DNA of 12,453 nt from a virus: the UHGV virus genome UHGV-0283832. One strand, given 5' to 3'. The stretch's first letter is position 1. Each line of letters opens with the position of its first letter. This document shows positions 1-12,377 of the stretch, one piece after another. The translations under genes were made by a program, and so were the position numbers. Below the pieces are notes generated by a model. The model saw only the letters and a program-made list of their open reading frames with translations, was not told where the DNA came from and made no database searches.

Positions 1-345
1 ACCTGAAAAGGCGTTGCTTCAGGCATAGTAGTCTCCTGAGGTTTTATTAGAATCATTATGTTTGAGCGTAGCGTTGGTAACGCTACCAGGCGCGTGAATG
101 TTACCCCATTTTATGTATGGACATGTAGTGAAAACTACAACTTTGTCGTTCGCTTTGGCATCATCTTCATTATAAAGACGGAATTTTGCATCAGCTTCTC
201 ATCAGGAAAAACAACTAAAAAATCAATCACAATACTTGTGCATTTCTTTAAACAGTTTTTTAAAACTGACTCCGGGTATGGAGCTATGGGTATTTTCTGT
301 CCCCAATGCTTTTAACAGCAATTAATTTCATAGGATGAAAGCTTA

Positions 346-1284
346 ATGCACCAATCTGGTTCTGTTTCTCTTTGTCGTTCCGCAATATCTGTTCTGGTGG
401 CTACAGCGTTATATTCACCCATAGCATTAGCATCAACTGTTGAGTATGGTGAGACAGTTGATGGTGTTGTCCTGGAAAAAGATATCCAGCTGGTTTATGG
501 GGCCGCCAATAATACGAAAATCAATCCTGGCGGAGAACAGCATATATAAGAATTTGGTGTAAGTAGTAATACTGAAATTAACGGGGGATATCAGTACATT
601 GAAATAAATGGCACCGCAGAATACTCAGTATTAAATGATGGTTATCAAATTGTTCAAATGGGTGGCGCGGTAAACCAGACTACGATCAATAATGGAGTGC
701 TACAGGTTTATGGCGCGGCGACTGATCCCACGATTAAAGGAGGGCGCTTAATTGTTGAAAAAGATGGGATTGCCGTCTTTGCCGTTATCGAAAAGGGAGG
801 ACTACTGGAGGTTAAAGCAACAGGTGATTTCAAAATATTCGTGACGGACACCGGTGCCAGCCCGGCAGCAGGAGATAACCTTACACTGGTAACAACGGGC
901 GCGGTGATGCGGCATTTACGTTGGGCAATGCCGGAAGCGTTGTTGATATCAGTACGTATGAATATACCTTGCTGGATAATGGCAACCATAGCTGGAGTCT
1001 CACAGAGAATCGCGTACAAATGCCCCCTTCAACCACGGATGTGCTGAATATGGCGGCAGCACAACCGCTGGTATTTGATGCAGAACTGGACACCGTGCGT
1101 GAGCGTCTTGGTAGCGCAAAGGGCGGCGATGTGGAGTTCGGCAATTAACAGCCGCAACAGCGTGAACACTGATGCGGGAGCTGGCTTTGAGCAAACATTG
1201 ACGGGCCTGACGCTCGGTATCGATAGTCGTTTCTCCTGTGAAGAAAGCAGCACAACTCAGGCGGGTGTAGTCTGGACGTTCTGA
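346..1284 (+). pseudogene. AIDA-I/Ag43-type autotransporter adhesin remnant, disrupted and heavily shortened
   Basis: ORF at 346 starts with a signal-peptide-like MHQSGSVSLCRSAISVLVATALYSPIALA followed by passenger-type repeats (LQVYGAATDPTIKGG, TINNGVLQVYG). An in-frame TAA sits at ~547-549, with the same frame open again through 1047. Frame changes near ~920 and ~1075. The last segment (GFEQTLTGLTLGIDSRF ... VVWTF) ends in an aromatic residue like autotransporter beta-domains. About 0.94 kb in total, versus >2.5 kb for intact family members. Its position convergent with tRNA-Pro resembles the E. coli yejO locus, but that is context inference only. Confidence 0.6.
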
Positions 1285-1350
1285 TAACAGAAAATAAACA
1301 GGCCGTGATGTGTCGCGGTCTGTTTATCGAATTAAATGCAGATATAAAAA

Positions 1351-1378
1351 AACCAACCGCAATAGGTTGGTTTTCTTG
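1351..1378. terminator. Bidirectional rho-independent terminator (likely the native tRNA/autotransporter terminator)
   Basis: Perfect 8-bp stem AACCAACC / GGTTGGTT with loop GCAATA, A-run on the left and T-run on the right. It lies just downstream (minus-strand sense) of the displaced tRNA 3'-end remnant. Confidence 0.5.
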
Positions 1379-1385
1379 GGATTTT

Positions 1386-1399
1386 TGGTCGCACGAGAG
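1386..1399. repeat. Island left junction: degenerate direct repeat of the tRNA-Pro 3' end (att core remnant)
   Basis: TGGTCGCACGAGAG here versus TGGTCGGCACGAGAG at 12301-12315 (1-nt deletion). Homology stops right after CACGAGAG. Confidence 0.55.
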
Positions 1400-1460
1400 T
1401 AGTTTAATTTAGCGTGTAACCGCATGATTTTAATAAATATTATTGATTCAACTTTTAAAC

Positions 1461-1485
1461 CGTATAACCAAACGTATAACTAAAA
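1461..1485. repeat. Integrase arm-type binding-site repeats (CGTATAAC), left arm
   Basis: CGTATAACCAAACGTATAACTAAAA here; nearly the same string CGTATAACTAAACGTATAACTAAAA occurs at ~12146-12170 beside the integrase gene, together with two inverted copies (AGTTATACG). Confidence 0.5.
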
Positions 1486-1626
1486 TAATTTGCTGAAAAA
1501 ATGCACAATTTAAACGGCGATTGCCCTAGCGACTTCCATGATTCTACCTGGATTTTTTTTCGCTCATTCGTTTTTAAGCTGGTGGATGTTCCCCGATATG
1601 GTGATCACCATATCGGGATTTACTCC

Positions 1627-1874
1627 AGGTTAATGTTAACCTCTGCCCTGTTAACATTTTTACCAAAAAGGTAGTTAACATTTTTTGCTCGCAACCAGAT
1701 GAATCATAAAGACAAAATCAACAACAACGCTTCATCAGGCAGTTAACATGTTAACTACTACGAAACGGTAATTTTTTCTCTGCGTGAGAGGGGGCGCGGT
1801 GTCCAGCTTATTCGTTGTTCGTGGCTAACCACTCCCCCCCCATGCCGGATTTTTTTTCCGGTTAACTGTTAATC
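1627..1874. promoter_or_regulatory. Cluster of GTTAAC-containing palindromes and repeats
   Basis: AGGTTAA-TG-TTAACCT palindrome at 1627-1642; GTTAACATTTTT direct repeats at ~1650 and ~1674; perfect 16-bp palindrome AGTTAACATGTTAACT at 1741-1756; GTTAACTGTTAATC at ~1861-1874. Confidence 0.3.
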
Positions 1875-2123
1875 AGGCTGGTGGGTTTTACCTGTTCTGT
1901 AGGAGTGGTCATTATGGCCATCCCTTATATCGTCCGAATGCCGGACGAAGGCACACATCAACCGTAACGAAAATCGTTATGGTTGCCTTGATGGTCTGCG
2001 TGGTCATTATGACCATTCAGACAATGACCTTAATCAGAATTTTTCGCTAAAAAATGACGTTGACCACGTCGTCCGGAAAACACAAAATCCCGTCGATTTT
2101 TAATTAACGGTTAAACCGTCTTT

Positions 2124-2159
2124 TGTCACGGCGTGTCACTGGCTGTCACTCTCCGTCAC
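2124..2159. repeat. Four helically phased direct repeats of TGTCAC at 10-bp spacing
   Basis: TGTCAC at ~2124, 2134 and 2144, and GTCAC at ~2155, giving exact 10-bp periodicity. An ACGGTT-A-AACCGT palindrome lies just upstream at ~2107-2119. Confidence 0.35.
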
Positions 2160-2247
2160 GATTGGGCGTGGTGATTATCACCATTTAGAATCTAAAGGGT
2201 GACGCTTCCGGCCTCCTCAAATTGAGGTTTCCGAAAATATCAACCAG

Positions 2248-2430
2248 TTACCGCCGCAACCGCTCCGGCTTCTTCCAGTGGTACGTTATTTTCTCCTTCT
2301 CCCGATACATCTCAACGCGGCGACGGTAGGCCAGCAACTCAAGAACTCTGGTTCGTATGTTGCGCATATCCACGCCATTAAGCTGGATACCATCACGGCG
2401 GATTAATCCCAGTATTTCGGCTTCTGTCAT
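2248..2430 (-). CDS. Hypothetical small protein (60 aa), basic C-terminus
   Basis: ATG start with a G-rich Shine-Dalgarno (GGGGG about 5 nt upstream). Protein MTEAEILGLIRRDGIQLNGVDMRNIRTRVLELLAYRRRVEMYREKEKITYHWKKPERLRR. It sits directly beyond the cosQ side of cos copy A. No family recognised. Confidence 0.45.
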   Translation of the reverse strand: MTEAEILGLIRRDGIQLNGVDMRNIRTRVLELLAYRRRVEMYREKEKITYHWKKPERLRR

Positions 2431-2458
2431 TGTGCCCCCATCGCTCTGATAGTCTGGT

Positions 2459-2529
2459 GTCGTCGGGTCCTTCCTGGAATTATGGCCCGTTACGGGGCGG
2501 CGACCTCGCGGTTTTTCGCTATTTATGAG
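2459..2529 (+). other. Lambda-type cos site, copy A (cosQ-like, cosN, start of cosB)
   Basis: GGGTCCTTCC...GTTACG|GGGCGGCGACCT|CGCGGTTTTTCGCTATTTATGA. This is near-identical to the phage lambda cohesive-end region as I recall it (right end ...GGGTCCTTTCCGGTGATCCGACAGGTTACG, 12-nt cohesive end GGGCGGCGACCT, left end CGCGGGTTTTCGCTATTTATGAAAA). cosN is at ~2495-2506. Confidence 0.7.
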
Positions 2530-2543
2530 CTTTTTTAGAGGGA

Positions 2544-2701
2544 GGTTGTTGTTTAATTGTTTGTCATATCCATTTGATAACTAAGTAAAAATAAAGAGCA
2601 ATACAACAACCTGATAGTGTTTTTTTGATGCTAAAAATAAAAAAATGCTAATTGAATCAAATAGTTTTAAAAAAATACGTGGTTGTTGTATTGCGTATTT
2701 G
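2544..2701. repeat. cosB-like terminase-binding repeat triad (GGTTGTTGT...) with an A-tract-rich spacer
   Basis: GGTTGTTGTTTAATTG at ~2544; inverted CAATACAACAACC at ~2599-2611; direct GGTTGTTGTATTG at ~2681-2693. A-tract-rich DNA with a weak IHF-like AATCAAatagTTT lies between copies 2 and 3. The layout mirrors lambda cosB (R3-I1-R2-R1), but the repeat sequence differs from lambda R sites. Confidence 0.45.
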
Positions 2702-2723
2702 ATGGCGTAACAGAAAGTGATTT

Positions 2724-3164
2724 TTAACTTTGCTGTTCTGTAACGACTGATTGTTCCATGCTGGCACGGCGAACGCTTACGGCATGACGCCACCCAGCCA
2801 GAAAGCCAGCCATTTTATTTCGTGCCTTGCTCACATCTTCCGGTGAATAGCCGTAAATCTGCAAACCTTCATCAAATCGATGTTCTGTTTCTTCACTGGA
2901 GTACTCGTCACGCTCAGATGAAAGCAGCCTGGCAAACATAATTTTTTCCAGCGCACTGGTTTCTACGTGATATCTGATGGCCTCAAGACGGCTTTTACCT
3001 GAAGACCAAAGCAATGTATGCCCGATGTGATAACCGCCAGACTTTCCGCGATCCGCATTAAGATACGGCATCCCCTGTTTGGTCCATGCGCGAATAGTGG
3101 TTCTGTTAACCTTGAAATGTTCAGCTATTTCCTGCTGACTTACAAAACAAGCTTTATCAATCAT
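2724..3164 (-). CDS. Lambda Nu1-like (terminase small subunit N-terminal HTH) DNA-binding protein; candidate packaging-specificity / helper-packaging redirection factor
   Basis: N-terminus VSQQEIAEHFKVNRTTIRAWTKQGMPYLNADRGKSGG aligns with lambda gpNu1 NKKQLADIFGASIRTIQNWQEQGMPVLRGGGKG. ATG with AAGGT Shine-Dalgarno. At 146 aa it is shorter than Nu1 and no large terminase follows. Cos copy B lies immediately upstream, as cos lies before Nu1 in lambda. Confidence 0.75.
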   Translation of the reverse strand: MIDKACFVSQQEIAEHFKVNRTTIRAWTKQGMPYLNADRGKSGGYHIGHTLLWSSGKSRLEAIRYHVETSALEKIMFARLLSSERDEYSSEETEHRFDEGLQIYGYSPEDVSKARNKMAGFLAGWRHAVSVRRASMEQSVVTEQQS

Positions 3165-3221
3165 AATGTTACCTTAACTGCATGGTTAAATATTAATCAA
3201 GTGGTGGTGGTGTCACCTTCA

Positions 3222-3297
3222 CGGAAAAACGTCATAAATAGCGAAAACCCGCGAGGTCGCCGCCCCGTAACGGGTCCATATGCCGGAAAGGACCCGT
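3222..3297 (-). other. Lambda-type cos site, copy B (inverted relative to copy A)
   Basis: Reverse complement reads ACGGGTCCTTTCCGGCATATGGACCCGTTACG|GGGCGGCGACCT|CGCGGGTTTTCGCTATTTATGA. cosN reverse complement (AGGTCGCCGCCC) is at ~3254-3265. About 65 bp is near-identical to copy A in inverted orientation. Confidence 0.65.
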
Positions 3298-3325
3298 AAA
3301 AAAAGCCGGATTTCTCCGGCCTTAT
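3298..3325 (-). terminator. Rho-independent terminator of the morphogenesis operon
   Basis: On the minus strand: stem GCCGGA / TCCGGC with a 4-nt loop followed by a T-run, immediately after the stop of the 137-aa gene. Confidence 0.6.
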
Positions 3326-3326
3326 G

Positions 3327-3740
3327 TCAGATGGTTTTCAGTATGCGATCGACGTCGCCTTCATCGCCCTGGTTTCTGCCGTCGTATGCCATGCCGGGTG
3401 ATACGGCTTTCGGGCTGTGCATGTCCATAAAGTTTTCAAAGGCTGCGGTAAGCTCCGGCGCAACCTTTGGGCGCTCCTGCTCTATGGTCATGTTCAGGAT
3501 TTCACGAGCATTATCGACGCTAATACATGGCACGTTTGCCATTGCACGTAACAGCGGCTGATAGTCGTTATGTTCATGAAGCGCCATAATCGCATCAGCG
3601 CGCGGCTTGTCCTGCTCTTCCAGTTTGTTGAGTTGATATACGGCCTCGTAGGTTGATAAACCTCTGTCAGCCATTGCCCGCGCTTCTGCTTTAAATTTAC
3701 TCGCCAGCGGTAGCGCCATGATGCTTTCATTCGTTGCCAT
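3327..3740 (-). CDS. Hypothetical acidic protein (137 aa), last gene of the capsid operon
   Basis: ATG with GGGGA Shine-Dalgarno 4-5 nt upstream and natural composition (MATNESIMALPLASKFKAEARAMADRG...). The competing 99-aa ORF 3494-3793 in another frame is R/W-rich and rejected. No family recognised. Confidence 0.6.
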   Translation of the reverse strand: MATNESIMALPLASKFKAEARAMADRGLSTYEAVYQLNKLEEQDKPRADAIMALHEHNDYQPLLRAMANVPCISVDNAREILNMTIEQERPKVAPELTAAFENFMDMHSPKAVSPGMAYDGRNQGDEGDVDRILKTI

Positions 3741-3752
3741 CGTTTCCCCTGC

Positions 3753-4040
3753 TTATCGCGCCAGCGGCTGAACGGATACGCCAGAACCCGCAAAGGCGGC
3801 GCATTTTTTCGCGTCAGTGTCGGCGCTCTCAGGCCAGTTTACGGCGGCGATATTAAATATCCCCGTCTTGTAACACTGTGCTGATTTCTGCTTTGACGTG
3901 TCCACGGGGTACGAGGTCAGATAAACAGCCTTCCCAGATTCCTGACCATCCCACGGCTTAAACTCGCCATTGTCCGCCAGCATCAGCGGCAAAATGTACC
4001 AGCGTCGTGGATACCTGCTGACTGCCTGCAAATAACTCAA
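3753..4040 (-). CDS. Hypothetical protein, start uncertain (TTG at 4040 or ATG at ~3983)
   Basis: ORF fills the gap between the capsid gene and the 137-aa gene. Its stop overlaps the Shine-Dalgarno of the downstream gene, suggesting operon coupling. No convincing Shine-Dalgarno for either start. Confidence 0.35.
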   Translation of the reverse strand: MSYLQAVSRYPRRWYILPLMLADNGEFKPWDGQESGKAVYLTSYPVDTSKQKSAQCYKTGIFNIAAVNWPESADTDAKKCAAFAGSGVSVQPLAR

Positions 4041-4067
4041 TGTATGGAGTGTCCATAGAATCCCCCG

Positions 4068-5123
4068 TTAAGCAATTTTGACGGTAACAAATTTGCGAAT
4101 ATCTGCCGGAACCGGCTGCGGTGCGCTGTGCGTCTGCACGTACTCAATCGCCGGATCGCCGTCCTCAATCCAGTTTTTCGGGTAGTACATGTTTTGCGTT
4201 GCGCCTGTTCTTACCGCTTCCTGATCCATAATCGCACCATAGGCCACCAGCCCTTTGTTGTTGGTGTTGCCCAGGACCAGTAAATCAGGCTCAAGGAAAT
4301 ATTTTTCTGTGCCGTCGCTGTCGGCGTATTTGCCGGCATAGACGATAAGGGCAATATCGCCCAGATAGCCTTTAAAGCTCACCACTTCGCCCAGGTTTTT
4401 ACAGGCCAGTTCTGCGGCGGATTCTGAACCACGGGAAAGATCGTACAGCTCACGGAATTTTTTAAAGCTGCGTAACGTGCGCCATACCTCAACGCCCATA
4501 ATCATGACGTTTGCGGGGCAACCAGCCTGATCAGCATAAAGCTCGATGTCATAGATTGGATCGTGTGTTTCCTTATCTGCCTCTGACCACTTTTTACCCG
4601 GTCCCTGTCTGGCGATATTTTTACTTGGGATCTTCCAGTCGATTTCATAGCGTTCTATGCCTTCGCCCTCAATGATGTTTTTTCCGGTCGTTATCGCATT
4701 CACCGCCAGCCATTCCACGCGCGCTTTAATGGCGTTTATCTGGCGGCGCATGTTGCCAGTAATCAGGCGCATACGGCGGTAGGTAGGGTCGTTAAGCTGT
4801 GCCGGATCTTCTCCAGCCATGCGCATTATTGTTTTTAATGGATCGATTTCGTGTTTTGGCTTCATGTAGCCAGGGCGAATAATGCTGGTTTCGTACCCTT
4901 TATCGCGCTGAACCTGGCTACCAACCATAGGCGAACAAAACGCCGACATAGTGACTTCTTCAATATCCAGGTTATCTAACATGATGTCCTGTGTGTTGAA
5001 TGTCGCCACGTTCGGGAAAAACAGCGCGGTAAACAGCGGACTAAATTTAAATTCCGCAATATCCTCGCGATTCAGGTACGCGAAAAGCTGGTGTGTGTTA
5101 AGTGCCATTGCGTTGACTGCCAT
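4068..5123 (-). CDS. Major capsid protein, lambda gpE-like (HK97 fold)
   Basis: 351 aa with collinear motifs matching lambda gpE across the whole length: FKFSPLF, PGYMKPKHE, EDPAQLNDPTYRRMR, WSEADKETHDP, DIELYA, RSFKKF, RGSESA, KNLGEVVSFKGYLGDIALIVYAGKY, FLEPDLLVLGNT, YPKNWIEDGDPAIEY, QTHSAP. Start overlaps the upstream ORF stop (TAATG). Confidence 0.85.
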   Translation of the reverse strand: MAVNAMALNTHQLFAYLNREDIAEFKFSPLFTALFFPNVATFNTQDIMLDNLDIEEVTMSAFCSPMVGSQVQRDKGYETSIIRPGYMKPKHEIDPLKTIMRMAGEDPAQLNDPTYRRMRLITGNMRRQINAIKARVEWLAVNAITTGKNIIEGEGIERYEIDWKIPSKNIARQGPGKKWSEADKETHDPIYDIELYADQAGCPANVMIMGVEVWRTLRSFKKFRELYDLSRGSESAAELACKNLGEVVSFKGYLGDIALIVYAGKYADSDGTEKYFLEPDLLVLGNTNNKGLVAYGAIMDQEAVRTGATQNMYYPKNWIEDGDPAIEYVQTHSAPQPVPADIRKFVTVKIA

Positions 5124-5329
5124 TATTCACCCCCATGAGTCTGATTTATGCCCAGCGCCGCGCGTAAATAGGAGCGTACCTGCCAGCCTGTTGACGGCTC
5201 AACCATCGCCAGCGGATCAAGTCCTGCCGCAATGCCTGCTTTTACGTTCTGCTGGTGGCGTTCCTTGAGCGCCTTCACGATGTCGGGGCTTATGTACACC
5301 GAAACACCGCCTTTTCTCTCTTCAGCCAT
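5123..5329 (-). CDS. Hypothetical small protein (68 aa), first gene of the capsid operon
   Basis: ATG with AGAGGA Shine-Dalgarno; translationally coupled to the capsid gene. No family recognised; not similar to lambda gpD or Nu3 as far as I can recall. Confidence 0.5.
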   Translation of the reverse strand: MAEERKGGVSVYISPDIVKALKERHQQNVKAGIAAGLDPLAMVEPSTGWQVRSYLRAALGINQTHGGE

Positions 5330-5364
5330 AGTAAGAAATTCCTCTTCGACTTAAAAAATCATAA

Positions 5365-5413
5365 CTGGATGTTCATCCAGCTCTGATTATAATCAGGATT
5401 GCATTTTGTGCAA
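5365..5413 (-). promoter_or_regulatory. Candidate sigma70 promoter with overlapping palindromic operators for the capsid operon
   Basis: Minus strand reads TTGCAC - 16 nt - TATAAT. The -10 lies inside the perfect 14-bp palindrome CTGATTATAATCAG (~5383-5396). CTGGATG-TT-CATCCAG (~5365-5380) lies at about +1, and TTGCA-ttttg-TGCAA at ~5399-5413. Confidence 0.35.
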
Positions 5414-5493
5414 TGATATTGAGTTACATTGCAAATTATGAAATGATTATCCCGATCATGTGTGTCAGTGCACCAAAAAACCTCATATGCAAA

Positions 5494-5531
5494 AGCCCGA
5501 TAAGCCACCTCTGACCTTATCGGGCTTTTTT
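5494..5531. terminator. Stem-loop terminator (10-bp stem GCCCGATAAG / CTTATCGGGC followed by T7)
   Basis: Long perfect stem followed by TTTTTTT on the plus strand and flanked by an A-run on the other side. Probably insulates the capsid promoter from the replication operon. Confidence 0.5.
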
Positions 5532-5537
5532 TGGGCG

Positions 5538-5559
5538 CAAAAAAGCCGGATTGCTCCGG
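5538..5559 (-). terminator. Rho-independent terminator of the replication operon
   Basis: Minus strand: GCCGGA-GCAA-TCCGGC followed by TTTTTT, about 25 nt after the PerC-like stop. Confidence 0.55.
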
Positions 5560-5583
5560 CTGTGTGGTGTGGTTCTGGTATTC

Positions 5584-5832
5584 CTACTCTGCTAATTTGC
5601 TCAGCCCCATGTCTGCGTAAGTGCGATTTACTGCATTTCTCAGGTCTGCATAGTTCTCCGTTGGCGGCTCCGGTGGCCTCTGTGCCTTCCTGGAACATTC
5701 CAGCCGTCGCATCGTAACCTGATGCCGTTCCTTGTCTGTCTCCACCAGTTGCATGACTTCACCCCATCGTGCCGCCGCCCTCCGGTAAAAGCCTTTTGCC
5801 TCTAGTTCCTCCGCTATGCGGTCATGTACCAT
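5584..5832 (-). CDS. PerC-family transcriptional regulator-like protein
   Basis: Taken from the internal ATG (MVHDRIAEELEAKGFYRRAAARWGEVMQ...) with GGTGAGG Shine-Dalgarno. The AE-LE-KG-YRRAA-RW signature resembles PerC/Pch-type regulators. The track ORF extends further 5' to 5952, but that part overlaps the SSB gene. Confidence 0.55.
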   Translation of the reverse strand: MVHDRIAEELEAKGFYRRAAARWGEVMQLVETDKERHQVTMRRLECSRKAQRPPEPPTENYADLRNAVNRTYADMGLSKLAE

Positions 5833-5842
5833 CCTCACCCCC

Positions 5843-6253
5843 TCAGAACGGAATATCATCACCGTAAGGGTCATCGCCTCCCGCTGGTGGCTGATTACCC
5901 TGTGTGCCTGTGGTTTTGCGTCTGTTCCCGCCAGGACGTGCCGCACGGGCACTGATTACGCTGTCTGCAATAACCTGATAACCCTGCCGCGTTTCCCCGT
6001 TCTGTCCGGTCCACTGGCTGACCTGCATCGTGCCGGATACGCTGGCAACGTCGCCTTTTTGATGTTTAGCCAGGAAGTCGGCCTGCTTACCAAATGCGAT
6101 GACCGATAGCCATAACGTCGCCTGCCCATCCTGCGCCTGACTACATGGCAACGATACCGCCATACGCGCCAGCGTCATCGGTGTGCCCTTGCTGGTCTGT
6201 TTTACCTGCGGGTCGTCCACCAGCCGCCCGTAAGCGGCTATCTGTGCTGTCAT
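5843..6253 (-). CDS. ssb: Single-stranded DNA-binding protein (short SSB)
   Basis: OB-fold-like N-terminal region (IAAYGRLVDDPQV...LARMAVSL...LWLSVIAFGKQADFLAKHQKGDVASVSGTMQVSQWTGQNGETRQGYQVIADSV), Gly/Pro-rich linker and the canonical acidic tail ending DDIPF. ATGA overlap with the upstream ORF. Confidence 0.8.
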   Translation of the reverse strand: MTAQIAAYGRLVDDPQVKQTSKGTPMTLARMAVSLPCSQAQDGQATLWLSVIAFGKQADFLAKHQKGDVASVSGTMQVSQWTGQNGETRQGYQVIADSVISARAARPGGNRRKTTGTQGNQPPAGGDDPYGDDIPF

Positions 6254-6528
6254 GATTCCACCTCTCCGGTTTTAACGTTGATGGTTGTTACCTGTTCCGC
6301 TTCGGCAATCTCCCGCTCTGTCAGCGTGGCAAAATTTGCCGCCGTCGTGGTCATGAATGCGCTTATCAGTTCGGGATGTGCTTTCGCGTATCCTTCCCCC
6401 GCGTGGCGGTCTATCGTTCTGATTGCCACCTTTAAAGCGTGCTCTGTCATGTCTAACGCGCGATATTTCGGTTCTGTTCTGTCTCTGCGTTTTTTGAGTG
6501 ATTTATTAAATTTCCCTGAAGTGTGCAT
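6250..6528 (-). CDS. Hypothetical protein (92 aa) between the iteron origin and ssb
   Basis: ATG with a G-rich Shine-Dalgarno about 14 nt upstream; translationally coupled to ssb. No family recognised. Confidence 0.5.
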   Translation of the reverse strand: MHTSGKFNKSLKKRRDRTEPKYRALDMTEHALKVAIRTIDRHAGEGYAKAHPELISAFMTTTAANFATLTEREIAEAEQVTTINVKTGEVES

Positions 6529-6585
6529 ATTTATTTTTACCCCCTCGTTTAAAAAGTTTTGAGTTGTGCCTCCCCTTGTCTACCT

Positions 6586-6806
6586 TATCTACCTTAGTGG
6601 CCCTCATACCAGTAATGGCGCGGCTTTCAGCGGGGTAGAGTGCTTTTATCCACTATCTACCCCGTGTCTACCTCCCTGTCTGATTCAGGTAAAATCAGGT
6701 AGAGAGGGTAGATAGTGGGTAGACAGTAAAAAAAAGCTATCTACCTAACTTAATGCACTGAATTAAATGTATTTTTCTTTACTCAGGTAGACAGGGTAGA
6801 CAGCAA
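6586..6806. repeat. Iteron-type replication origin (GGTAGACAG family repeats plus AT-rich segment)
   Basis: At least 11 copies of GGTAGA(C/T)AG or its complement CT(G/A)TCTACC in both orientations (for example ~6586, 6597, 6634, 6651, 6665, 6697, 6706, 6717, 6738, 6786, 6795), with tandem GGTAGACAGGGTAGACAG at 6786-6803. AT-rich stretch at ~6727-6780 and a DnaA-box-like TTATCCACT at ~6646-6654. Immediately downstream of the primase gene. Confidence 0.75.
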
Positions 6807-6816
6807 TTACAAAAAA

Positions 6817-8571
6817 TTATAAAAACGCGTCGCACTCGTCTGTTGTTATTGCGTTAGTCTGCGTTACCCCCTTAACTTTCCGCGTAATATATTCATGTCC
6901 GTAAACTTTTGCGGCAGGCTTCATAGCCTTTCCAAAGTCATTTACGTTTAGCGGTTTGCTCCTGCCTGCGTATGCCATAAACGCCAGATAGACGCGGTAA
7001 AGGCTGTTCCTGGTCGTGTACTTCACTGAATCGCCACCGCCCCCCATCATCAGGCCGCGCGCTTCCTCCAGAAAATTCAGGAACTGGCAAAACTCAATAA
7101 CCGGATCCGTCTGTTGCTTTATTGCCAGTGCTTCATCACCGTCACGCTGTTCCAGTAGTAAAGCCCGTGCCTTCTCAGGGGCGGTAAAGTTCGCCAGCAA
7201 TCGGCGGATAATGACAGGGATTTCAGCCGCAATCTTTTCCGGTAGCTCCCTGTCTTTTTCGGCCTCACTGACGATATTGTCGAAACGGAAAATTACGCGA
7301 CGACGTGACACACCTCCGGCCCGTTCGGTGAATATCATCGGATTGTTATTGGTTGCCAGCACCACCGCCCTGATTACCGCCGTAAAACGCTTTTCATATT
7401 TCGGGTTAATTTCCACGGGGTCGCCGCCCGTGATTTTCTTGATGCCCGTTCCTTCGCCTGTATATTTCGGCTGGTCAGCCAGGACGATAAGACGACTCCC
7501 GACAACCTGCGCACGTCCACCAGCATCATCAAGCGATGTCATTTCAGCGCTTACCGTGTTCTGTTTCCCTGCCAGAAGGCTGGCTATGTGCGTGAATGTA
7601 CTTTTACCGCTCCCGCCATCTCCGGTGGCCTCAATAAACATCTGCCAGTCGTACCGGTTCGCCATAATCATGTACAGCGCGGCACATATACGCATCATCT
7701 TGCGCGGGTCTTTTCCGGCTGCGTGCTCAAGCCATTTATGAAAGTTTGGCGCGTTATCGCGGATGTTCTCCCCTGGTGCTGGTGGCGTGTACTCAATGCC
7801 GTTGTGCGTGGTGATCCAGCTCTCCGGCGTGTGCGGGGAAAATTCCCCCGTTTTCAGGTCAAGCGCACCATTGGCGAACGGCAGCAAATCGCCGGACGGC
7901 TCGCCCATTGGTTCGGCAATAACTTTTAACGCTTCCACGGCGTTATTGATTACGCGCTTGCTGAAAGTGGCCCTGTGCTCTGAATAGATCGCCACCATTT
8001 CGCGGCTAAGTTCCATTGTGCTGACCGGACACCATACCCCGCCGCGCCATACGTGAACGATTTCACTTTCAGGATGTACGCAAACGCCATCAAAGCGATC
8101 GGCAAGCAGCTGCGCGCGCTCACTGTCCGCCATCTGCGAAAGTTGCGCCTTTTGCTTTACCGGAAGCTCAATGACCAGACCATCAGAAAGATTCTGGCGC
8201 TCACGGGCCAGATATTCGCGCCAGTTCTCCACCTTCTGACCGTGCATACCCTCAGGATAAAAATTTGCATCCTGTACGCCTGCCGCCGCCAGCTTCTGAC
8301 CAATCGCCTTTATCATTACTGGCGCAAGATATCCGGCCCTGAATATGCGCACGGATTTTCTGCCTTCCGGCACAATTTGCAGCTTATCCAGTTCGGATAA
8401 CTGCTGCTCCCCAAGCCACACAGGAGGCTCATTATCTCCGGCCATACGCGCGTCATGTTCCTGCCATTGTTTTGCGTGTGACCAGGCATCACTACCCGCA
8501 AAAATAATGACTTCTGTTTCTTTGTGTTTTATGCCGCGTGACTGCTGTTTTACGTTCGGTGCCAGTTTCAT
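6817..8571 (-). CDS. Replication initiator: P4-family primase / helicase-type NTPase (pri-rep)
   Basis: 584 aa. Walker A GDGGSGKST (encoded at ~7596-7630) with the surrounding FIEATGDGGSGKSTFTHIASLLAG typical of the phage/plasmid P4-family primase C-terminal NTPase domain. An N-terminal ~300 aa domain precedes it. ATGA overlap with the upstream ORF; followed by the iteron array. Confidence 0.85.
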   Translation of the reverse strand: MKLAPNVKQQSRGIKHKETEVIIFAGSDAWSHAKQWQEHDARMAGDNEPPVWLGEQQLSELDKLQIVPEGRKSVRIFRAGYLAPVMIKAIGQKLAAAGVQDANFYPEGMHGQKVENWREYLARERQNLSDGLVIELPVKQKAQLSQMADSERAQLLADRFDGVCVHPESEIVHVWRGGVWCPVSTMELSREMVAIYSEHRATFSKRVINNAVEALKVIAEPMGEPSGDLLPFANGALDLKTGEFSPHTPESWITTHNGIEYTPPAPGENIRDNAPNFHKWLEHAAGKDPRKMMRICAALYMIMANRYDWQMFIEATGDGGSGKSTFTHIASLLAGKQNTVSAEMTSLDDAGGRAQVVGSRLIVLADQPKYTGEGTGIKKITGGDPVEINPKYEKRFTAVIRAVVLATNNNPMIFTERAGGVSRRRVIFRFDNIVSEAEKDRELPEKIAAEIPVIIRRLLANFTAPEKARALLLEQRDGDEALAIKQQTDPVIEFCQFLNFLEEARGLMMGGGGDSVKYTTRNSLYRVYLAFMAYAGRSKPLNVNDFGKAMKPAAKVYGHEYITRKVKGVTQTNAITTDECDAFL

Positions 8572-8855
8572 TTTTTACCCCCTGCGACCAGCATTTCACG
8601 AATTTTGCGGATATGACTTGCTGCACGTTTCTGATTTACGGCTTTACGATGGCCCACCAGCGTGAAATCACGCCGGAACTGATAAACAGGCATCACGCAG
8701 TCATATTCGTAGCCATCACGGCGGTAAGTGATGCGCCGTTCTGCCACGCCTTTTATCGTTACCGTGCCGCCATAGTTATCCCGGAAAATATCGCCGGGGC
8801 GGATTTCAGGCTGAGAGAAGTCACTGGCAGTAAAGCCAGAATTTTTCTTTTTCAT
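8568..8855 (-). CDS. Hypothetical protein (95 aa), translationally coupled to the primase
   Basis: ATG start with AGGAAA upstream; stop overlaps the primase start (ATGA). No family recognised. Confidence 0.55.
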   Translation of the reverse strand: MKKKNSGFTASDFSQPEIRPGDIFRDNYGGTVTIKGVAERRITYRRDGYEYDCVMPVYQFRRDFTLVGHRKAVNQKRAASHIRKIREMLVAGGKK

Positions 8856-8860
8856 GGTTT

Positions 8861-9061
8861 TTATTTTCCTGTCAGTGATTCAAGTTTTATTCCGGCACGA
8901 ATACAGGCCTCAGAAAAAAAAGCCAGAGAACCAACAACCTCATTATTTCTAAGGCGGCATTGTGATTTCACTTTCCCTTTATCGAGAAATATCAAAACGC
9001 GTCCCGTATAATCTGACGGCACATTAAGAACTACAGGTAAGTGCGCTTCATAATTGTGCAT
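8861..9061 (-). CDS. Hypothetical small protein (66 aa)
   Basis: ATG with GGGGG Shine-Dalgarno about 8 nt upstream. Start lies within the last 14 nt of the upstream 69-aa gene and the stop is 5 nt before the next ATG, consistent with a tightly coupled operon. Could still be spurious. Confidence 0.35.
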   Translation of the reverse strand: MHNYEAHLPVVLNVPSDYTGRVLIFLDKGKVKSQCRLRNNEVVGSLAFFSEACIRAGIKLESLTGK

Positions 9062-9257
9062 GGTGCGCCCCCTGACGAATACGGGCGGCGAATACCATCA
9101 CGCAGCCATCAGGAGATTGCTGACGCGCTTCCTGTTCGCTGGTGGCCTCAATGGTAATCACGCGCGGTTGTGCCGTGCTCAGGGCGATAAAACGCCAGAT
9201 GTATTTATTCAGGTTGTACGAGTCCCGCCCTTGCGGGTGTATGGTATAATTTCTCAT
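9048..9257 (-). CDS. Small protein (69 aa), possibly Icd-like (host cell division inhibitor-like)
   Basis: Internal ATG of the long track ORF 9048-10124, with GAGG Shine-Dalgarno 5 nt upstream. Protein MRNYTIHPQGRDSYNLNKYIWRFIALSTAQPRVITIEATSEQEARQQSPDGCVMVFAARIRQGAHHAQL. The Icd-like call rests on a vague memory of similar small proteins in P4-like islands, so it is weak. Confidence 0.4.
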   Translation of the reverse strand: MRNYTIHPQGRDSYNLNKYIWRFIALSTAQPRVITIEATSEQEARQQSPDGCVMVFAARIRQGAHHAQL

Positions 9258-9346
9258 AGCTGCCTCGATAATCTTGCTATCGTTGGTGGTTAGAAGCCCC
9301 GTTACTGCTCCTACAGTGCGGGGTTTCGTCGTTTCTGCACCTTGCA

Positions 9347-9440
9347 TTAACAAGGTGTAAGTAACTTTATTTATAGGTGGCTTACATGTCAATGCTTTTA
9401 TGTAAGACTTTTTATGTGTATATTGTCTTACACTTTCATT
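9347..9440. promoter_or_regulatory. Divergent promoter/operator region between the replication operon and the plus-strand cassette
   Basis: Palindrome CACCTTG-cattaa-CAAGGTG at ~9347-9366; inverted repeat CTTACAT ... ATGTAAG at ~9391-9417 and a further CTTACA copy at ~9436; TATATT -10-like element at ~9429-9434. Confidence 0.35.
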
Positions 9441-9453
9441 GAGAGGATTACAG

Positions 9454-9759
9454 ATGGCTACAGGTTCAAAAAACGCAAAATCACAATCACTGACAGCTCG
9501 GATCCCGCATGATGTTATTGAAGGCATGGAATCCGTAAAACTGGACGGTGAAAGCAACGCCGGATTCATAGTAACCGCCATGCGCGGTGAAATCGCCCGC
9601 CGCCAGGCAGAAGGAAGCGGAGAAAACCCCCTGATTTCTTCGCTCGATGCACTGGCGCAGGTGGAAAAACTCGGAATCAAAGCCGCCGAGGAGATCGGGC
9701 AGCTCGTCACTGTCGCACGTGAAGAACTCCAGCGCCGCAAGACCAAAGAACCAGAGTAA
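9454..9759 (+). CDS. Ribbon-helix-helix-like small DNA-binding protein (101 aa)
   Basis: ATG at 9454 with GAGAGGA Shine-Dalgarno 6 nt upstream (the track ORF starts earlier at a TTG). The N-terminal segment SLTARIPHDVIEGMESVK fits the strand-helix pattern of RHH (CopG/Arc/ParD-like) proteins; the C-terminal half is helical and charged. The RHH call is pattern-based only. Confidence 0.55.
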   Translation: MATGSKNAKSQSLTARIPHDVIEGMESVKLDGESNAGFIVTAMRGEIARRQAEGSGENPLISSLDALAQVEKLGIKAAEEIGQLVTVAREELQRRKTKEPE

Positions 9760-9816
9760 TCACCATCAGCGCCGTGGTGTAAGGTATTACGGCGCATTGC
9801 TATGCAGGACAACACA

Positions 9817-9990
9817 ATGACCGATAAAGAATTGACCAAAACATTATCACCGGCACGGAAAAGACGGCGCAGAAAGATAGAGCATGAATCAGAAAGATTC
9901 GCGCCATGTGCTTTTGCCCTTGAGCAATTCCTTAAAGAATACAGGGAAAAGCGCTCATTGCAGGTATGGCAACGAACTGAACCAGACTGA
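9817..9990 (+). CDS. Hypothetical highly basic mini-protein (57 aa)
   Basis: ATG at 9817 with AGGA Shine-Dalgarno 7 nt upstream (the track ORF starts at an earlier ATG at 9802 that lacks one). Protein MTDKELTKTLSPARKRRRRKIEHESERFAPCAFALEQFLKEYREKRSLQVWQRTEPD. Followed by a plus-strand terminator. Confidence 0.45.
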   Translation: MTDKELTKTLSPARKRRRRKIEHESERFAPCAFALEQFLKEYREKRSLQVWQRTEPD

Positions 9991-10085
9991 TTGCATTGCC
10001 CACCAGCCTGATAGCGGCTATCATCCCCGTGCTTATGTTTGGGATCATATACACATAAGGCGCAGCGGGTTAATTGTTCAGAAAG

Positions 10086-10112
10086 GCGGCTCCATATCGG
10101 GGCCGCTTTTTT
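10086..10112 (+). terminator. Rho-independent terminator of the plus-strand cassette
   Basis: GC-rich stem (GCGGC ... GCCGC) followed by TTTTTT about 100 nt after the 57-aa ORF stop. Confidence 0.5.
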
Positions 10113-10138
10113 CGTGTTTGTCATATCTGTGATACCCG

Positions 10139-10475: not shown

Positions 10476-10500
10476 ATAAAAAAAGCGGCATTTCTGCCGC
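10476..10500 (-). terminator. Rho-independent terminator after the 83-aa ORF
   Basis: Minus strand: GCGGCA-GAAA-TGCCGC followed by a run of T (plus-strand A-run at ~10475-10484). Confidence 0.6.
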
Positions 10501-12082: not shown

Positions 12083-12117
12083 ATGTCTATGATTCCACAC
12101 GAAAAAACAGGGGTTTA

Positions 12118-12170
12118 GTTATACGGCTTTAGTTATACGTCAGCCCGTATAACTAAACGTATAACTAAAA
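12118..12170. repeat. Integrase arm-type binding sites (right arm)
   Basis: Two AGTTATACG copies (~12118, ~12131) followed by two inverted CGTATAACTAAA copies (~12146, ~12158). The same 9-mers occur at 1461-1485 in the left arm. Confidence 0.5.
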
Positions 12171-12294
12171 AATCCGGCTGATAGCTTATAAATCCGGTGA
12201 TGTTCGGTGACTAAAAAACATAAAAAAACCCGCCAATCAAGTGATTAGCGGGTTATCCCTGTCTTATCCGGTGCTTTCCGGTGATATCCGGTGG
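12171..12294. repeat. Phased TCCGGTG(A) direct repeats next to the att core (candidate excisionase/AlpA sites)
   Basis: Six copies: ~12171 (variant TCCGGCTGA), ~12193, ~12203 (variant TTCGGTGA), ~12266, ~12277 and ~12287, mostly at 10-11 bp spacing. The same heptamer occurs twice in the alpA leader (~10364-10380). Confidence 0.45.
12222..12254 (-). terminator. Island-supplied terminator downstream of the tRNA
   Basis: Near-palindromic hairpin AACCCGCCAATCAAGTGATTAGCGGGTT preceded on the plus strand by AAAAAAA (a T-run on the minus strand), about 45 nt downstream of the tRNA 3' end. Confidence 0.5.
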
Positions 12295-12300
12295 GCGATT

Positions 12301-12377
12301 TGGTCGGCACGAGAGGATTTGAACCTCCGACCCCCGACACCCCATGACGGTGCGCTACCAGGCTGCGCTACGTGCCG
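12301..12377 (-). tRNA. proL: tRNA-Pro (anticodon GGG)
   Basis: Reverse complement reads CGGCACGTAGCGCAGCCTGGTAGCGCACCGTCATGGGGTGTCGGGGGTCGGAGGTTCAAATCCTCTCGTGCCGACCA: 77 nt, cloverleaf-compatible, anticodon loop T-GGG-GT, encoded CCA. It matches the E. coli proL-type tRNA as I recall it. Confidence 0.9.

What the first reader, a model, noticed from the sequence alone, without database searches (positions are those of the whole stretch)
3327..5329. Stand-alone lambda gpE-like capsid gene without portal, protease or terminase
A full-length HK97-fold major capsid homolog is encoded in a four-gene operon with three small proteins of no recognisable family, and nothing else of a head module is present in the island. 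A satellite-encoded capsid-protein homolog is a plausible capsid-size redirection device (co-assembly with helper capsid protein to make small capsids); the small partners could be scaffold-like or helper-interfering factors. I have a recollection that such capsid homologs have been reported for E. coli satellites, so the novelty may lie mainly in the accompanying small proteins.
Basis: partly seen in the sequence, partly recalled or inferred. Interest (0 to 1): 0.55.

Follow-up and report, generated by a model that had tools for sequence, protein, structure and literature searches.

The report
Known PICI satellite capsid operon
This is the already described capsid-gene operon of an E. coli phage satellite (an EcCICFT073-type PICI); I add that one partner gene is a lambda-type scaffold homolog and that the decoration gene is broken in this copy, while the function of the operon is still not known.

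Summary
The operon is real at 3327-5329 on the minus strand. It lies in a ~10.7 kb PICI satellite between tRNA-Pro and yejO. The island has no portal, protease or large terminase.

It is not new. The capsid protein is about 93% identical to CFT073 c1499 (crystal structure 3BQW). EcCICFT073's capsid (c1499) and decoration (c1500) genes were described in 2018. Deleting them changed neither lambda interference nor transfer, and packaged DNA was phage-sized. Capsid genes are a listed core component of Proteobacterial PICIs.

Two of the three "family-less" small proteins belong to known families:
- The ~95-aa ORF is the remnant of a 111-aa gpD/SHP-type decoration gene. A 32-bp deletion between 15-bp direct repeats has frameshifted it.
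- The 137-aa protein is a Nu3/phage-21-gp6-type scaffold homolog. NCBI's "head-tail connector" label is not supported.
- Only the 68-aa protein remains an orphan. It is always immediately upstream of the capsid gene in four genera and has no match in phage genomes.

All four genes are under purifying selection (dN/dS about 0.1-0.3). The capsid lineage is satellite-specific, at most 46% identical to any phage capsid.

Most likely the operon supplies the satellite's own lambda-type shell proteins. Size redirection is not supported. Interest is low to moderate.

The parts
5123..5329 (-). 68-aa orphan gene, first gene of the operon; its stop overlaps the capsid start
   Evidence: ORF. PHROG phrog_3255 (unknown function), E=4e-36. 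No Pfam, NCBIfam or PADLOC hit. No tblastn match in 50,697 phage records. The family is confined to Enterobacterales and has no domain. It lies immediately upstream of the capsid gene in Escherichia, Salmonella, Pluralibacter and Edwardsiella islands. AlphaFold2 gives 2-3 helices at pLDDT 74. Hints of a ribbon-helix-helix fold are not significant.
4068..5123 (-). Full-length lambda gpE-family major capsid protein (351 aa), ortholog of CFT073 c1499
   Evidence: Pfam PF03864, E=1.4e-48. PDB 3BQW, E=6e-225, aligned 1-351. Lambda gpE (7VI9), E=1e-80, 43% identity. dN/dS 0.10-0.16. The best phage match is only 45-46% identical.
   Evidence: DNA alignment with CFT073, Nissle and AST198 shows a 32-bp gap between two copies of CCGCTGATGCTGGCG. 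Translation from the native ATG at 4056 stops after 32 codons. Pfam HDPD, E=1.6e-14. The intact 111-aa ortholog hits phage 21 SHP (1TD0, E=6e-13) and lambda gpD. The 10 best-matching E. coli genomes and strain MS 21-1 do not carry the deletion.
3327..3740 (-). 137-aa stand-alone homolog of lambda Nu3 / phage 21 gp6 scaffolding protein (= CFT073 c1501)
3299..3320 (-). Intrinsic terminator closing the operon (GCCGGAGAAATCCGGC followed by a T-run)
   Evidence: Sequence. It is one of three copies of the same hairpin (family D2).
5539..5561 (-). Intrinsic terminator ending the upstream perC unit; a second hairpin follows at about 5490-5530
5384..5445 (-). Conserved promoter-like block upstream of the 68-aa gene: TTGCA-type repeats, TTGCAC (5413-5408), a 16-nt spacer, then TATAAT (5391-5386)
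   Evidence: The alignment of the upstream regions shows this block conserved even in the divergent relative L004, whereas the hairpin at 5382-5363 is not. One consensus promoter hit at 5442-5413. Function is inferred only.
3225..3296 (-). Lambda-type cos site (cosN GGGCGGCGACCT at 3265-3254) between the operon terminator and rpp
   Evidence: Exact 12-mer match, 0.06 expected by chance. It is one arm of a 72-nt inverted repeat. EcCICFT073 is known to have two cos sites (PMC6739421).
2724..3164 (-). Rpp (redirecting phage packaging) protein, 146 aa
   Evidence: PDB 6HLK RppC, E=6e-31. 99% amino-acid identity to the CFT073 ortholog.
2464..2535 (+). Second lambda-type cos site (cosN at 2495-2506), in inverted orientation

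Best explanation
Identity (near certain). The finding is the late 'capsid' operon of a classical Gram-negative phage-inducible chromosomal island (PICI) of the EcCICFT073 type. The island is integrated next to tRNA-Pro (proL).

The operon encodes satellite-lineage versions of the proteins that build a lambda-type shell:
- the coat protein (gpE-like, 351 aa);
- the cement or decoration protein (gpD/SHP-like, 111 aa in relatives, frameshifted here);
- an internal scaffold (Nu3/gp6-like, 137 aa);
- a satellite-only 68-aa protein of unknown role, always placed immediately upstream of the coat gene.

Directly downstream are a cos site, rpp and a second cos site. These are the experimentally established packaging-redirection device of these islands.

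Mechanism (inferred, about 0.4). After helper induction the operon is transcribed from its own conserved promoter. Its products assemble with each other, and possibly with helper subunits, on the helper's portal. Maturation would use the helper's protease. This would yield lambda-sized heads that add to or substitute for helper-made shells. The Rpp-TerS complex then packages island concatemers into those heads. Because helper shells can do the same job, loss of the operon is silent in standard laboratory transfer and interference assays. This copy has already lost its cement protein.
For: Identity:
- 94-96% DNA identity to the islands of CFT073, Nissle and AST198, with the same gene order.
- Integrase, primase, weak AlpA match, Rpp and two cos sites are present.
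- The capsid aligns 1-351 with PDB 3BQW, the CFT073 protein.

Shell set:
- Coat, cement and scaffold homologies.
- No portal, protease or TerL in the island.

Selection and lineage:
- dN/dS: capsid 0.10-0.16, D 0.11-0.30, scaffold 0.19-0.33, 68-aa about 0.3.
- No phage among 50,697 records has a capsid more than 46% identical.
- In an Edwardsiella helper-embedded island, the satellite capsid is 48% identical to the co-resident helper capsid but 63% identical to this window's capsid. The lineage is therefore old and satellite-specific, not a recent capture.
- The 68-aa/coat/cement triad is conserved in four genera with different replication modules.
- The scaffold's C-terminal tail (DRILKTI) is invariant even in the 39%-identical relative, consistent with a conserved binding partner.

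Lambda-sized heads and redundancy fit the published data:
- packaged DNA was phage-sized;
- deletion of c1499 or c1500 left transfer by the resident helper and lambda interference unchanged (PMC6092414);
- single-gene expression was harmless to lambda (PMC6739421).
Against: - No experiment shows that these proteins assemble, enter virions or affect fitness. The published knock-outs have no phenotype.
- Coat and scaffold at 43-48% identity to helper proteins may not interact with a helper portal or protease.
- The gene after the cement gene is not conserved. Salmonella and Pluralibacter islands carry an unrelated 77-79 aa protein there, and the Edwardsiella island carries nothing. A dedicated scaffold is therefore not universal.
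- Sporadic decay argues that selection is weak or conditional: the cement frameshift here, an internal stop in the AST198 capsid and a split capsid in Pluralibacter.
- Expression from the proposed promoter is untested.
Confidence: 0.55

Rival explanations
1. Capsid-size redirection. The satellite coat and/or Nu3-like scaffold co-assemble with helper coat protein. This forces small heads that fit one or two island genomes and exclude the helper genome.
For: - There is precedent in other satellites. SaPIbov5 Ccm is a coat homolog. SaPI1 CpmB and SaPIpT1028 Rcm mimic the helper scaffold (PMC6893505; PMC12409344).
- PmCI172 carries a capsid homolog and makes small heads (PMC6092414).
- This island has both a coat and a scaffold homolog.
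- By my own arithmetic, 10.7 kb would fit a T=3-sized lambda-type head as a monomer, or a T=4 head as a dimer.
Against: - For the ~93%-identical EcCICFT073 module, DNA packaged from the lambda lysogen was phage-sized only.
- Deletion of c1499 or c1500 did not relieve interference or change transfer.
- The tetA-marked island kept the operon intact, because the marker was inserted after the c1501 stop codon.
- Interference is fully explained by Rpp.
- Four island copies (42.8 kb) fit a lambda head, so small heads are not needed.
Confidence: 0.12
2. Anti-phage interference against lambdoid phages other than those tested. The satellite coat, scaffold and cement act as dominant-negative subunits that poison head assembly of particular phages. 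This would protect the host population.
For: - PICIs commonly carry interference functions.
- The genes are under purifying selection yet dispensable for transfer.
- The scaffold-like gene is fast-evolving and replaceable (39% identity against 83% for the coat). That pattern would suit an arms race.
Against: - Expressed singly from pBAD, none of the post-ori genes except rppA reduced lambda plaquing. The text retrieved reports phage 80 and HK97 results only for c1503.
- There are no PADLOC hits.
- At 45% identity, co-assembly with phage coats is uncertain.
- A poison would be expected to track helper sequences, yet the coat is the most conserved gene of the set.
Confidence: 0.12
3. Functionless remnant. 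The genes are leftovers of a captured helper head module, or of a capsid-forming ancestor, and are carried along by linkage to rpp and cos.
For: - No phenotype was found for c1499 or c1500.
- The decoration gene is frameshifted in this window.
- The AST198 capsid has an internal stop and the Pluralibacter capsid is split.
Against: - dN/dS of 0.1-0.3 at dS up to about 0.9 for all four genes.
- The triad is conserved across four genera with otherwise different island backbones.
- The D-gene segment is found in 597 of 5,426 complete E. coli genomes, and the 11 examined (the 10 best matches and MS 21-1) carry it undeleted.
- The lineage is older than the genus splits.
Confidence: 0.08

Closest known systems
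EcCICFT073 (E. coli CFT073 PICI), genes c1499 (capsid), c1500 (decoration), c1501 and c1503 (rppA), plus the 68-aa gene upstream of c1499 (old locus tag not checked) and cos1/cos2
   Same: Same gene order and about 94% DNA identity over 2200-6600. Amino-acid identity: capsid 93%, 137-aa protein 90%, Rpp 99%. Two inverted lambda-type cosN sites flank rpp.
   Different: Different integrase and integration site: tRNA-Pro/yejO here, against the pepT/roxA-phoQ interval in CFT073. The decoration gene is frameshifted here. The region between alpA and the primase gene differs.
Lambda / phage 21 head module (Nu3 or gp6 scaffold, gpD or SHP, gpE or gp7)
   Same: Homologous coat (43-45% identity), cement and scaffold C-terminal region.
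   Different: The gene order is permuted: coat-cement-scaffold instead of scaffold-cement-coat. The scaffold is a stand-alone gene, not nested in a protease gene. There is no portal, protease, TerL, W, FI or FII. An extra 68-aa gene is present that no phage has.
SaPIbov5 Ccm, and SaPI1 CpmB / SaPIpT1028 Rcm
   Same: These are satellite-encoded homologs or mimics of the helper's coat (Ccm) or scaffold (CpmB, Rcm).
   Different: Those proteins demonstrably make small capsids and interfere with the helper. The EcCICFT073 homologs do neither in published tests. There is no sequence relationship.
Capsid-forming PICIs (cf-PICI, e.g. EcCIEDL933)
   Same: A PICI backbone that carries its own capsid gene(s).
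   Different: cf-PICIs encode portal, protease, head-tail connectors, HNH, TerS and TerL, and build complete small heads. None of these is present here. The capsid trees separate PICI from cf-PICI (PMC10085698).
Helper-embedded PICIs (11capE type)
   Same: The same 68/70-aa - capsid - decoration triad. I found one inside a portal gene in Edwardsiella tarda, and the type is described in PMC10111431.
   Different: The window's island sits in the chromosome next to a tRNA gene, not inside a prophage late gene.

Membership tests
Classical Gram-negative PICI (EcCICFT073 type) | Tyrosine integrase at one end, next to a specific att site | tested here: met
   Integrase domains, E=1.7e-28. tRNA-Pro at 12301-12377. 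Direct repeat at 1460-1496 and 12145-12181. Chromosomal flanks in relatives.
Classical Gram-negative PICI (EcCICFT073 type) | AlpA-type regulator downstream of int | tested here: inconclusive
   The 68-aa ORF at 10139-10345 hits Pfam Phage_AlpA at E=0.0035, 17.6 bits, below the 21-bit cutoff. Orthologs are annotated only as HTH regulators.
Classical Gram-negative PICI (EcCICFT073 type) | Own primase/replicase; mostly unidirectional genes; size 10-15 kb | tested here: met
   D5_N, DUF5906 and Pox_D5 domains; phrog_864, E=1e-174. About 10.7 kb between the repeats.
Classical Gram-negative PICI (EcCICFT073 type) | Packaging device: Rpp or TerS homolog plus helper-type cos | tested here: met
   RppC, E=6e-31. 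Two exact lambda cosN 12-mers.
Classical Gram-negative PICI (EcCICFT073 type) | No tail, lysis, portal or large-terminase genes | tested here: met
   Pfam and PHROG scans of the island ORFs examined.
Classical Gram-negative PICI (EcCICFT073 type) | Helper-dependent induction, packaging and high-frequency transfer | not testable with these tools
   Shown for EcCICFT073 in PMC6092414 and PMC6739421, not for this copy.
Lambda gpE family major capsid protein (PF03864, HK97 fold) | Full-length match to the family profile and a solved HK97-fold relative | tested here: met
   E=1.4e-48, residues 27-349. 3BQW aligned 1-351 and 7VI9 at E=1e-80.
Lambda gpE family major capsid protein (PF03864, HK97 fold) | Assembles into icosahedral shells | not testable with these tools
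   No assembly data were found for c1499 or its relatives in the library searched.
gpD/SHP head-decoration protein (PF02924) | Profile match above the gathering score | tested here: met
   54.4 bits against a 29.1-bit cutoff. 1TD0, E=6e-13, for the intact ortholog.
gpD/SHP head-decoration protein (PF02924) | Intact reading frame including the N-terminal arm | tested here: not met
   The 32-bp deletion puts a stop after codon 32 of the native frame. The gene is intact in the relatives checked.
Lambda Nu3 / phage 21 gp6 scaffolding protein | Sequence homology over the repeat and C-terminal tail region | tested here: met
   The direct comparison with lambda Nu3 alone is weak; the link runs through phage 21, Gifsy-1 and P0075.
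Lambda Nu3 / phage 21 gp6 scaffolding protein | Encoded as the in-frame C-terminal part of the prohead protease gene, upstream of D and E | tested here: not met
   It is a stand-alone gene downstream of the E and D homologs, and the island has no protease. Compare.
Lambda Nu3 / phage 21 gp6 scaffolding protein | Binds coat protein and is required for procapsid assembly | not testable with these tools
   Needs two-hybrid, pull-down or assembly assays.
Phage head-tail connector protein (NCBI's name for the 137-aa protein) | Similarity to gpW, gpFII or gp6-like connector families | tested here: not met
   No Pfam or NCBIfam hit. The family HMM hits no W, FI or FII protein of lambda, 21, N15 or Gifsy-1.
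Capsid-forming PICI (cf-PICI) | Portal, prohead protease, head-tail adaptor/connector, HNH and TerL encoded by the island | tested here: not met
   None found.
Ccm-type capsid-size redirection | Satellite coat homolog that produces small capsids and blocks the helper | not testable with these tools
   Published tests on the EcCICFT073 ortholog were negative with lambda and the resident helper.

The most novel reading that the evidence does not exclude
The conserved 68-aa/coat/cement set, joined in the E. coli lineage by a Nu3-like scaffold, makes these 'classical' PICIs partly capsid-forming. They would build their own lambda-type shells on a stolen helper portal and protease. That is an intermediate between satellites that only hijack capsids and cf-PICIs that make complete heads. 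The satellite-only 68-aa protein would be the specificity factor, acting either as an adaptor to the helper portal or as a regulator of shell-gene expression. The missing knock-out phenotype would then be masking by redundant helper shells.
Probability: 0.25. Interest if true: 0.6.

Novelty: already known. Interest (0 to 1): 0.3.

Why it matters
The stand-alone capsid gene of E. coli PICIs is documented, structurally solved (3BQW) and used as a marker in satellite finders. The finding itself adds nothing new.

What remains open is why hundreds of E. coli genomes, and islands in at least four genera, keep a diverged coat-plus-cement pair under purifying selection when knock-outs have no phenotype.

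Recognising c1501 as a Nu3-type scaffold makes the question sharper. It corrects the current 'head-tail connector' annotation and shows that the E. coli islands carry a complete set of shell-forming proteins. This suggests a simple complementation test with helper coat-gene amber mutants. If that test is positive, it would blur the line between capsid-hijacking and capsid-forming satellites.

Tried and rejected
1. 68-aa protein as a gpW homolog (same length): hhalign probability 0.4%. Rejected.
3. Fold search of the 137-aa model against BFVD: nothing significant. The scaffold assignment rests on sequence profiles.
4. NCBI's label 'head-tail connector' for the 137-aa protein: rejected.
5. I suspected that the published 'no small capsids' result came from islands whose shell operon was disrupted by the c1501::tetA marker. 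The primer sequences show the cassette sits just after the c1501 stop codon. The suspicion is refuted for the tetA island; the cat island does lack c1499.
6. The 77-79 aa proteins at the scaffold position in Salmonella and Pluralibacter islands as mini Nu3 tails: local-alignment z-scores against 500 shuffles were at most 2.8 for every comparison, including controls. Not supported.
7. A Q-antitermination-like promoter-plus-hairpin arrangement upstream of the operon: the hairpin at 5382-5363 is not conserved in L004. Dropped.
8. The apparent PerC relationship of the 68-aa family (P0094) is a PerC::68-aa deletion fusion, not homology.
9. A scan of genome contigs with the capsid protein found no relatives. 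I presume the E. coli representative genome lacks the island.
10. Rfam (only the tRNA) and PADLOC (nothing for the operon).
Full report
**What is there**

The window is an E. coli-type chromosomal segment. It contains a truncated yejO autotransporter gene (346 to about 1450, plus strand) and a ~10.7 kb island. The island is bounded by an imperfect direct repeat (1460-1496 and 12145-12181). An integrase gene (10841-12100, minus strand) lies next to tRNA-Pro (12301-12377).

In E. coli Nissle 1917 and strain AST198 the same island sits between narP/yejO and proL/yejM. The element is therefore complete within the window.

Its genes are:
- integrase;
- a weak AlpA-like regulator;
- a DUF4222 protein;
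- a D5/P4-type primase;
- an SSB;
- PerC;
- the four-gene unit of the finding;
- a cos site, Rpp, and a second cos site.

No ORF matches a portal, prohead protease, large terminase, tail or lysis protein. This is the anatomy of a classical Gram-negative phage-inducible chromosomal island (PICI). The right half is about 94% identical in DNA to the prototype EcCICFT073, although that island uses a different integration site.

**The observation**

The coordinates 3327-5329 hold four co-directional minus-strand reading frames with operon-like spacing. Two nearly identical intrinsic terminators bracket them, at 5561-5539 and 3320-3299.

The capsid gene (5123-4068) is intact:
- Pfam Phage_cap_E, E=1.4e-48;
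- gap-free alignment over all 351 residues with PDB 3BQW, the structural-genomics crystal structure of the CFT073 protein (E=6e-225);
- E=1e-80 and 43% identity to lambda gpE.

Two parts of the observation do not hold.

First, the '~95-aa' ORF is not a gene of unknown family. It hits Pfam HDPD (lambda gpD) above the gathering score. Alignment with three relatives shows that the real gene starts at the ATG at 4056 and is 111 codons long elsewhere. In this window a 32-bp deletion between two copies of CCGCTGATGCTGGCG shifts the frame, giving a stop after 32 codons. The 95-aa ORF is the TTG-started, out-of-frame remainder. The ten best-matching E. coli genomes and strain MS 21-1 do not have the deletion. 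It is therefore a rare or private lesion, or an assembly error.

Second, the 137-aa protein is also assignable, as described next.

**The 137-aa protein is a Nu3-type scaffold homolog**

The evidence is a chain of sequence-profile results:
- It matches phrog_1999 (unknown function) and, at E=1.5e-9, the extreme C-terminus of the protease/scaffold family phrog_53.
- An exhaustive phmmer search of 1.8 billion representative proteins found a very narrow family plus one outlier, P0075 (195 aa).
- P0075 lies directly upstream of gpD and gpE homologs, in the Nu3 position.
- P0075 matches lambda Nu3 at E=2e-16 and the 137-aa protein at E=2e-10 over 114 residues.
- P0075 also hits phrog_1999 at 1e-41, together with 'head scaffolding protein' families.
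- An HMM built only from the 137-aa family detects phage 21 scaffolding protein gp6 (E=2.5e-10 with Z set to 10^6) and the C-terminal part of the Gifsy-1 gpC homolog (E=3.7e-11). It does not detect gpW, FI, FII, B, D, E or Nu1 of four lambdoid phages.
- The alignment is collinear through the 'FExFMxxHSP' motif to the hydrophobic C-terminal tail.

The current NCBI name 'phage head-tail connector protein' is therefore not supported. The AlphaFold2 model is all-helical (pLDDT 73). As expected for such a protein, it gave no significant fold matches. According to the supplement of the 2018 paper, this gene is CFT073 c1501.

**The 68-aa protein remains an orphan**

- It has no Pfam, NCBIfam, PADLOC or PDB match.
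- It has no tblastn match in 50,697 phage genomes.
- Fold searches found nothing significant.
- A profile search of 5.8 billion proteins found only enterobacterial 'hypothetical proteins'.
- It is not gpW.
- A ribbon-helix-helix reading is only hinted at.

Its position is its most informative property. It lies immediately upstream of the capsid gene in Escherichia, Salmonella, Pluralibacter and Edwardsiella islands, which otherwise have different replication modules and integration sites.

**Conservation and ancestry**

Pairwise dN/dS values indicate purifying selection on all four genes:

| Gene | dN/dS |
|---|---|
| Capsid | 0.10-0.16 |
| Decoration | 0.11-0.30 |
| Scaffold-like | 0.19-0.33 |
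| 68-aa (at dS about 0.9-1.1) | about 0.3 |

No sequenced phage has a capsid more than 46% identical.

In Edwardsiella tarda I found a helper-embedded island inside the portal gene of a lambda-like prophage. There the satellite capsid is 48% identical to the helper's capsid 3.5 kb away, but 63% identical to this window's capsid. The decoration proteins behave in the same way. The satellite coat-plus-cement pair is therefore an old lineage of its own, not a recent capture from helpers.

The gene after the cement gene is variable:
- Nu3-like in the E. coli lineage, only 39% identical in the divergent relative L004 where the coat is 83% identical;
- an unrelated 77-79 aa protein in Salmonella and Pluralibacter;
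- absent in the Edwardsiella island.

Sporadic decay occurs: the frameshift here, an internal stop in the AST198 capsid, and a split capsid in Pluralibacter.

**What is already known**

- Fillol-Salom et al. 2018 (PMC6092414) described c1499 as a putative capsid protein and c1500 as a head-decoration protein, with SaPIbov5 Ccm explicitly in mind.
- They found that DNA packaged after inducing the lambda lysogen carrying EcCICFT073 is phage-sized.
- Deleting c1499 or c1500 does not restore lambda plaquing.
- It also does not change transfer by the resident CFT073 helper (Table 1: 8x10^3 wild type against 3.8x10^3 and 8.7x10^3). In their words, no phenotype could be found for c1499.
- I checked whether their marked islands had disrupted the operon. 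The tetA cassette lies just after the c1501 stop codon, so that island is intact.
- Fillol-Salom et al. 2019 (PMC6739421) cloned each post-ori gene. Only c1503 (rppA) inhibited lambda.
- The same paper established the Rpp-TerS mechanism and the two cos sites, which I also see here.
- Later surveys state that capsid genes occur in 21 of 29 reference Gram-negative PICIs (PMC10111431).
- Another survey lists 'capsid morphogenesis' as a PICI core component (PMC10085698).
- Dokland's 2019 review notes the EcCICFT073 capsid homolog and its normal-size packaging (PMC6893505).
- I found no paper up to mid-2026 in the searchable library that assigns a function to these genes or that calls c1501 a scaffold.

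**How it most likely works**

The following are shown:
- the gene identities and the operon structure;
- conservation of the genes;
- absence of the vertex and enzymatic head components;
- the adjacent cos/Rpp packaging device.

The mechanism below is inferred. Coat, cement and scaffold are the high-copy, geometry-defining proteins of a lambda-type head. The missing parts are the portal, protease, terminase and connectors. Apart from the Rpp-TerS use of the helper terminase, dependence on these helper parts is inferred.

The simplest reading is that the island makes its own shell subunits. These would assemble on the helper portal and be matured by the helper protease. Heads produced this way are filled by the Rpp-redirected terminase. 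They would be lambda-sized, which matches the phage-sized DNA. They would also be redundant with helper-made heads, which would explain the silent knock-outs. I put this at about 0.4.

The rivals are:
- size redirection with untested helpers (about 0.12);
- dominant-negative interference with other lambdoid phages (about 0.12);
- functionless remnant (about 0.08, contradicted by the selection data).

The rest of the probability is unassigned. In this copy the cement protein is already lost, so at best a cement-less shell could form.

**Verdict**

The finding is a correct recognition of a known feature of a known satellite family. Its proposed mechanism has been tested and not supported in the prototype. 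New here are:
- the corrected annotations (c1501 as a scaffold homolog, and the decoration pseudogene);
- the satellite-specific ancestry of the coat-plus-cement pair;
- the tight, cross-genus linkage of the orphan 68-aa gene to the coat gene.

These sharpen an open but modest question rather than reveal a new kind of system.

Noticed in passing
window 2464-2535 (+) and 3225-3296 (-): A 72-nt inverted repeat, 86% complementary, flanks rpp. Each arm carries an exact lambda cosN 12-mer (GGGCGGCGACCT) and lambda-like flanks. These correspond to the two cos sites (cos1, cos2) published for EcCICFT073. CFT073, Nissle and AST198 have the same pair.
   Followed up: partly
window 1497-2247: A ~750-bp stretch at the island end has no convincing ORF but is dense in repeats. 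GTGGTCATTATGGCCAT occurs three times (1905, 2000, 2168). There are four TGTCAC repeats at about 2125-2160, a perfect 26-bp palindrome at 1592-1617, and GTTAACATTTTT repeats. The stretch is present but unannotated in other E. coli genomes. Its function is unknown.
   Followed up: partly
window 3299-3320, 5539-5560, 10479-10500: Three copies of essentially the same terminator hairpin (AAAAAAGCCGGATTTCTCCGGC on the plus strand) punctuate the island's transcription units.
   Followed up: no
window 5384-5445 (-): A block of TTGCA-type repeats ending in a perfect TATAAT lies upstream of the 68-aa gene. It is conserved even in the divergent relative L004, whereas the hairpin just downstream (5382-5363) is not. 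This looks like a regulated promoter; the regulator is unknown.
   Followed up: partly
window 9048-10124 (-): A 358-aa ORF with no family hit lies antisense to two plus-strand ORFs (9439-9759 and 9802-9990). AT skew flips sign in this region. Relatives annotate small plus-strand YlcI/YnfO-type genes and Icd-like fragments here, so the long ORF is probably spurious.
   Followed up: partly
window 346 to about 1450 (+): The yejO autotransporter gene is fragmented and truncated next to the island, as in Nissle 1917. It is full length (2592 bp) in AST198 and MS 21-1.
   Followed up: no
L016 (Edwardsiella tarda), 1-9120 and 9120-14213: A PICI (int, alpA, primase, 70-aa gene, capsid, decoration) is inserted in the portal gene of a lambda-like prophage. 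The prophage's protease, D, E, FI, FII and Z genes follow directly. This is a helper-embedded PICI in a genus outside Escherichia.
   Followed up: partly
proteins P0027, P0030, P0031 (relatives of window 3327-3740): These are 93-aa variants of the scaffold-like protein. They lack 44 residues between the two internal 'RAMA' repeat motifs, so one Nu3-type repeat has been lost by an in-frame deletion.
   Followed up: no
protein P0094: A 79-aa protein annotated as a PerC family regulator is a fusion of the PerC N-terminus with the C-terminus of the 68-aa protein. It was presumably created by a deletion joining the two neighbouring genes.
   Followed up: partly
L003 (AST198) 7217-8272; L013 (Pluralibacter) 7207-8260: The capsid genes of sister islands are inactivated: an internal stop in AST198, and a split into 179 + 170 aa in Pluralibacter. 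Decay of the shell operon is recurrent but scattered.
   Followed up: no
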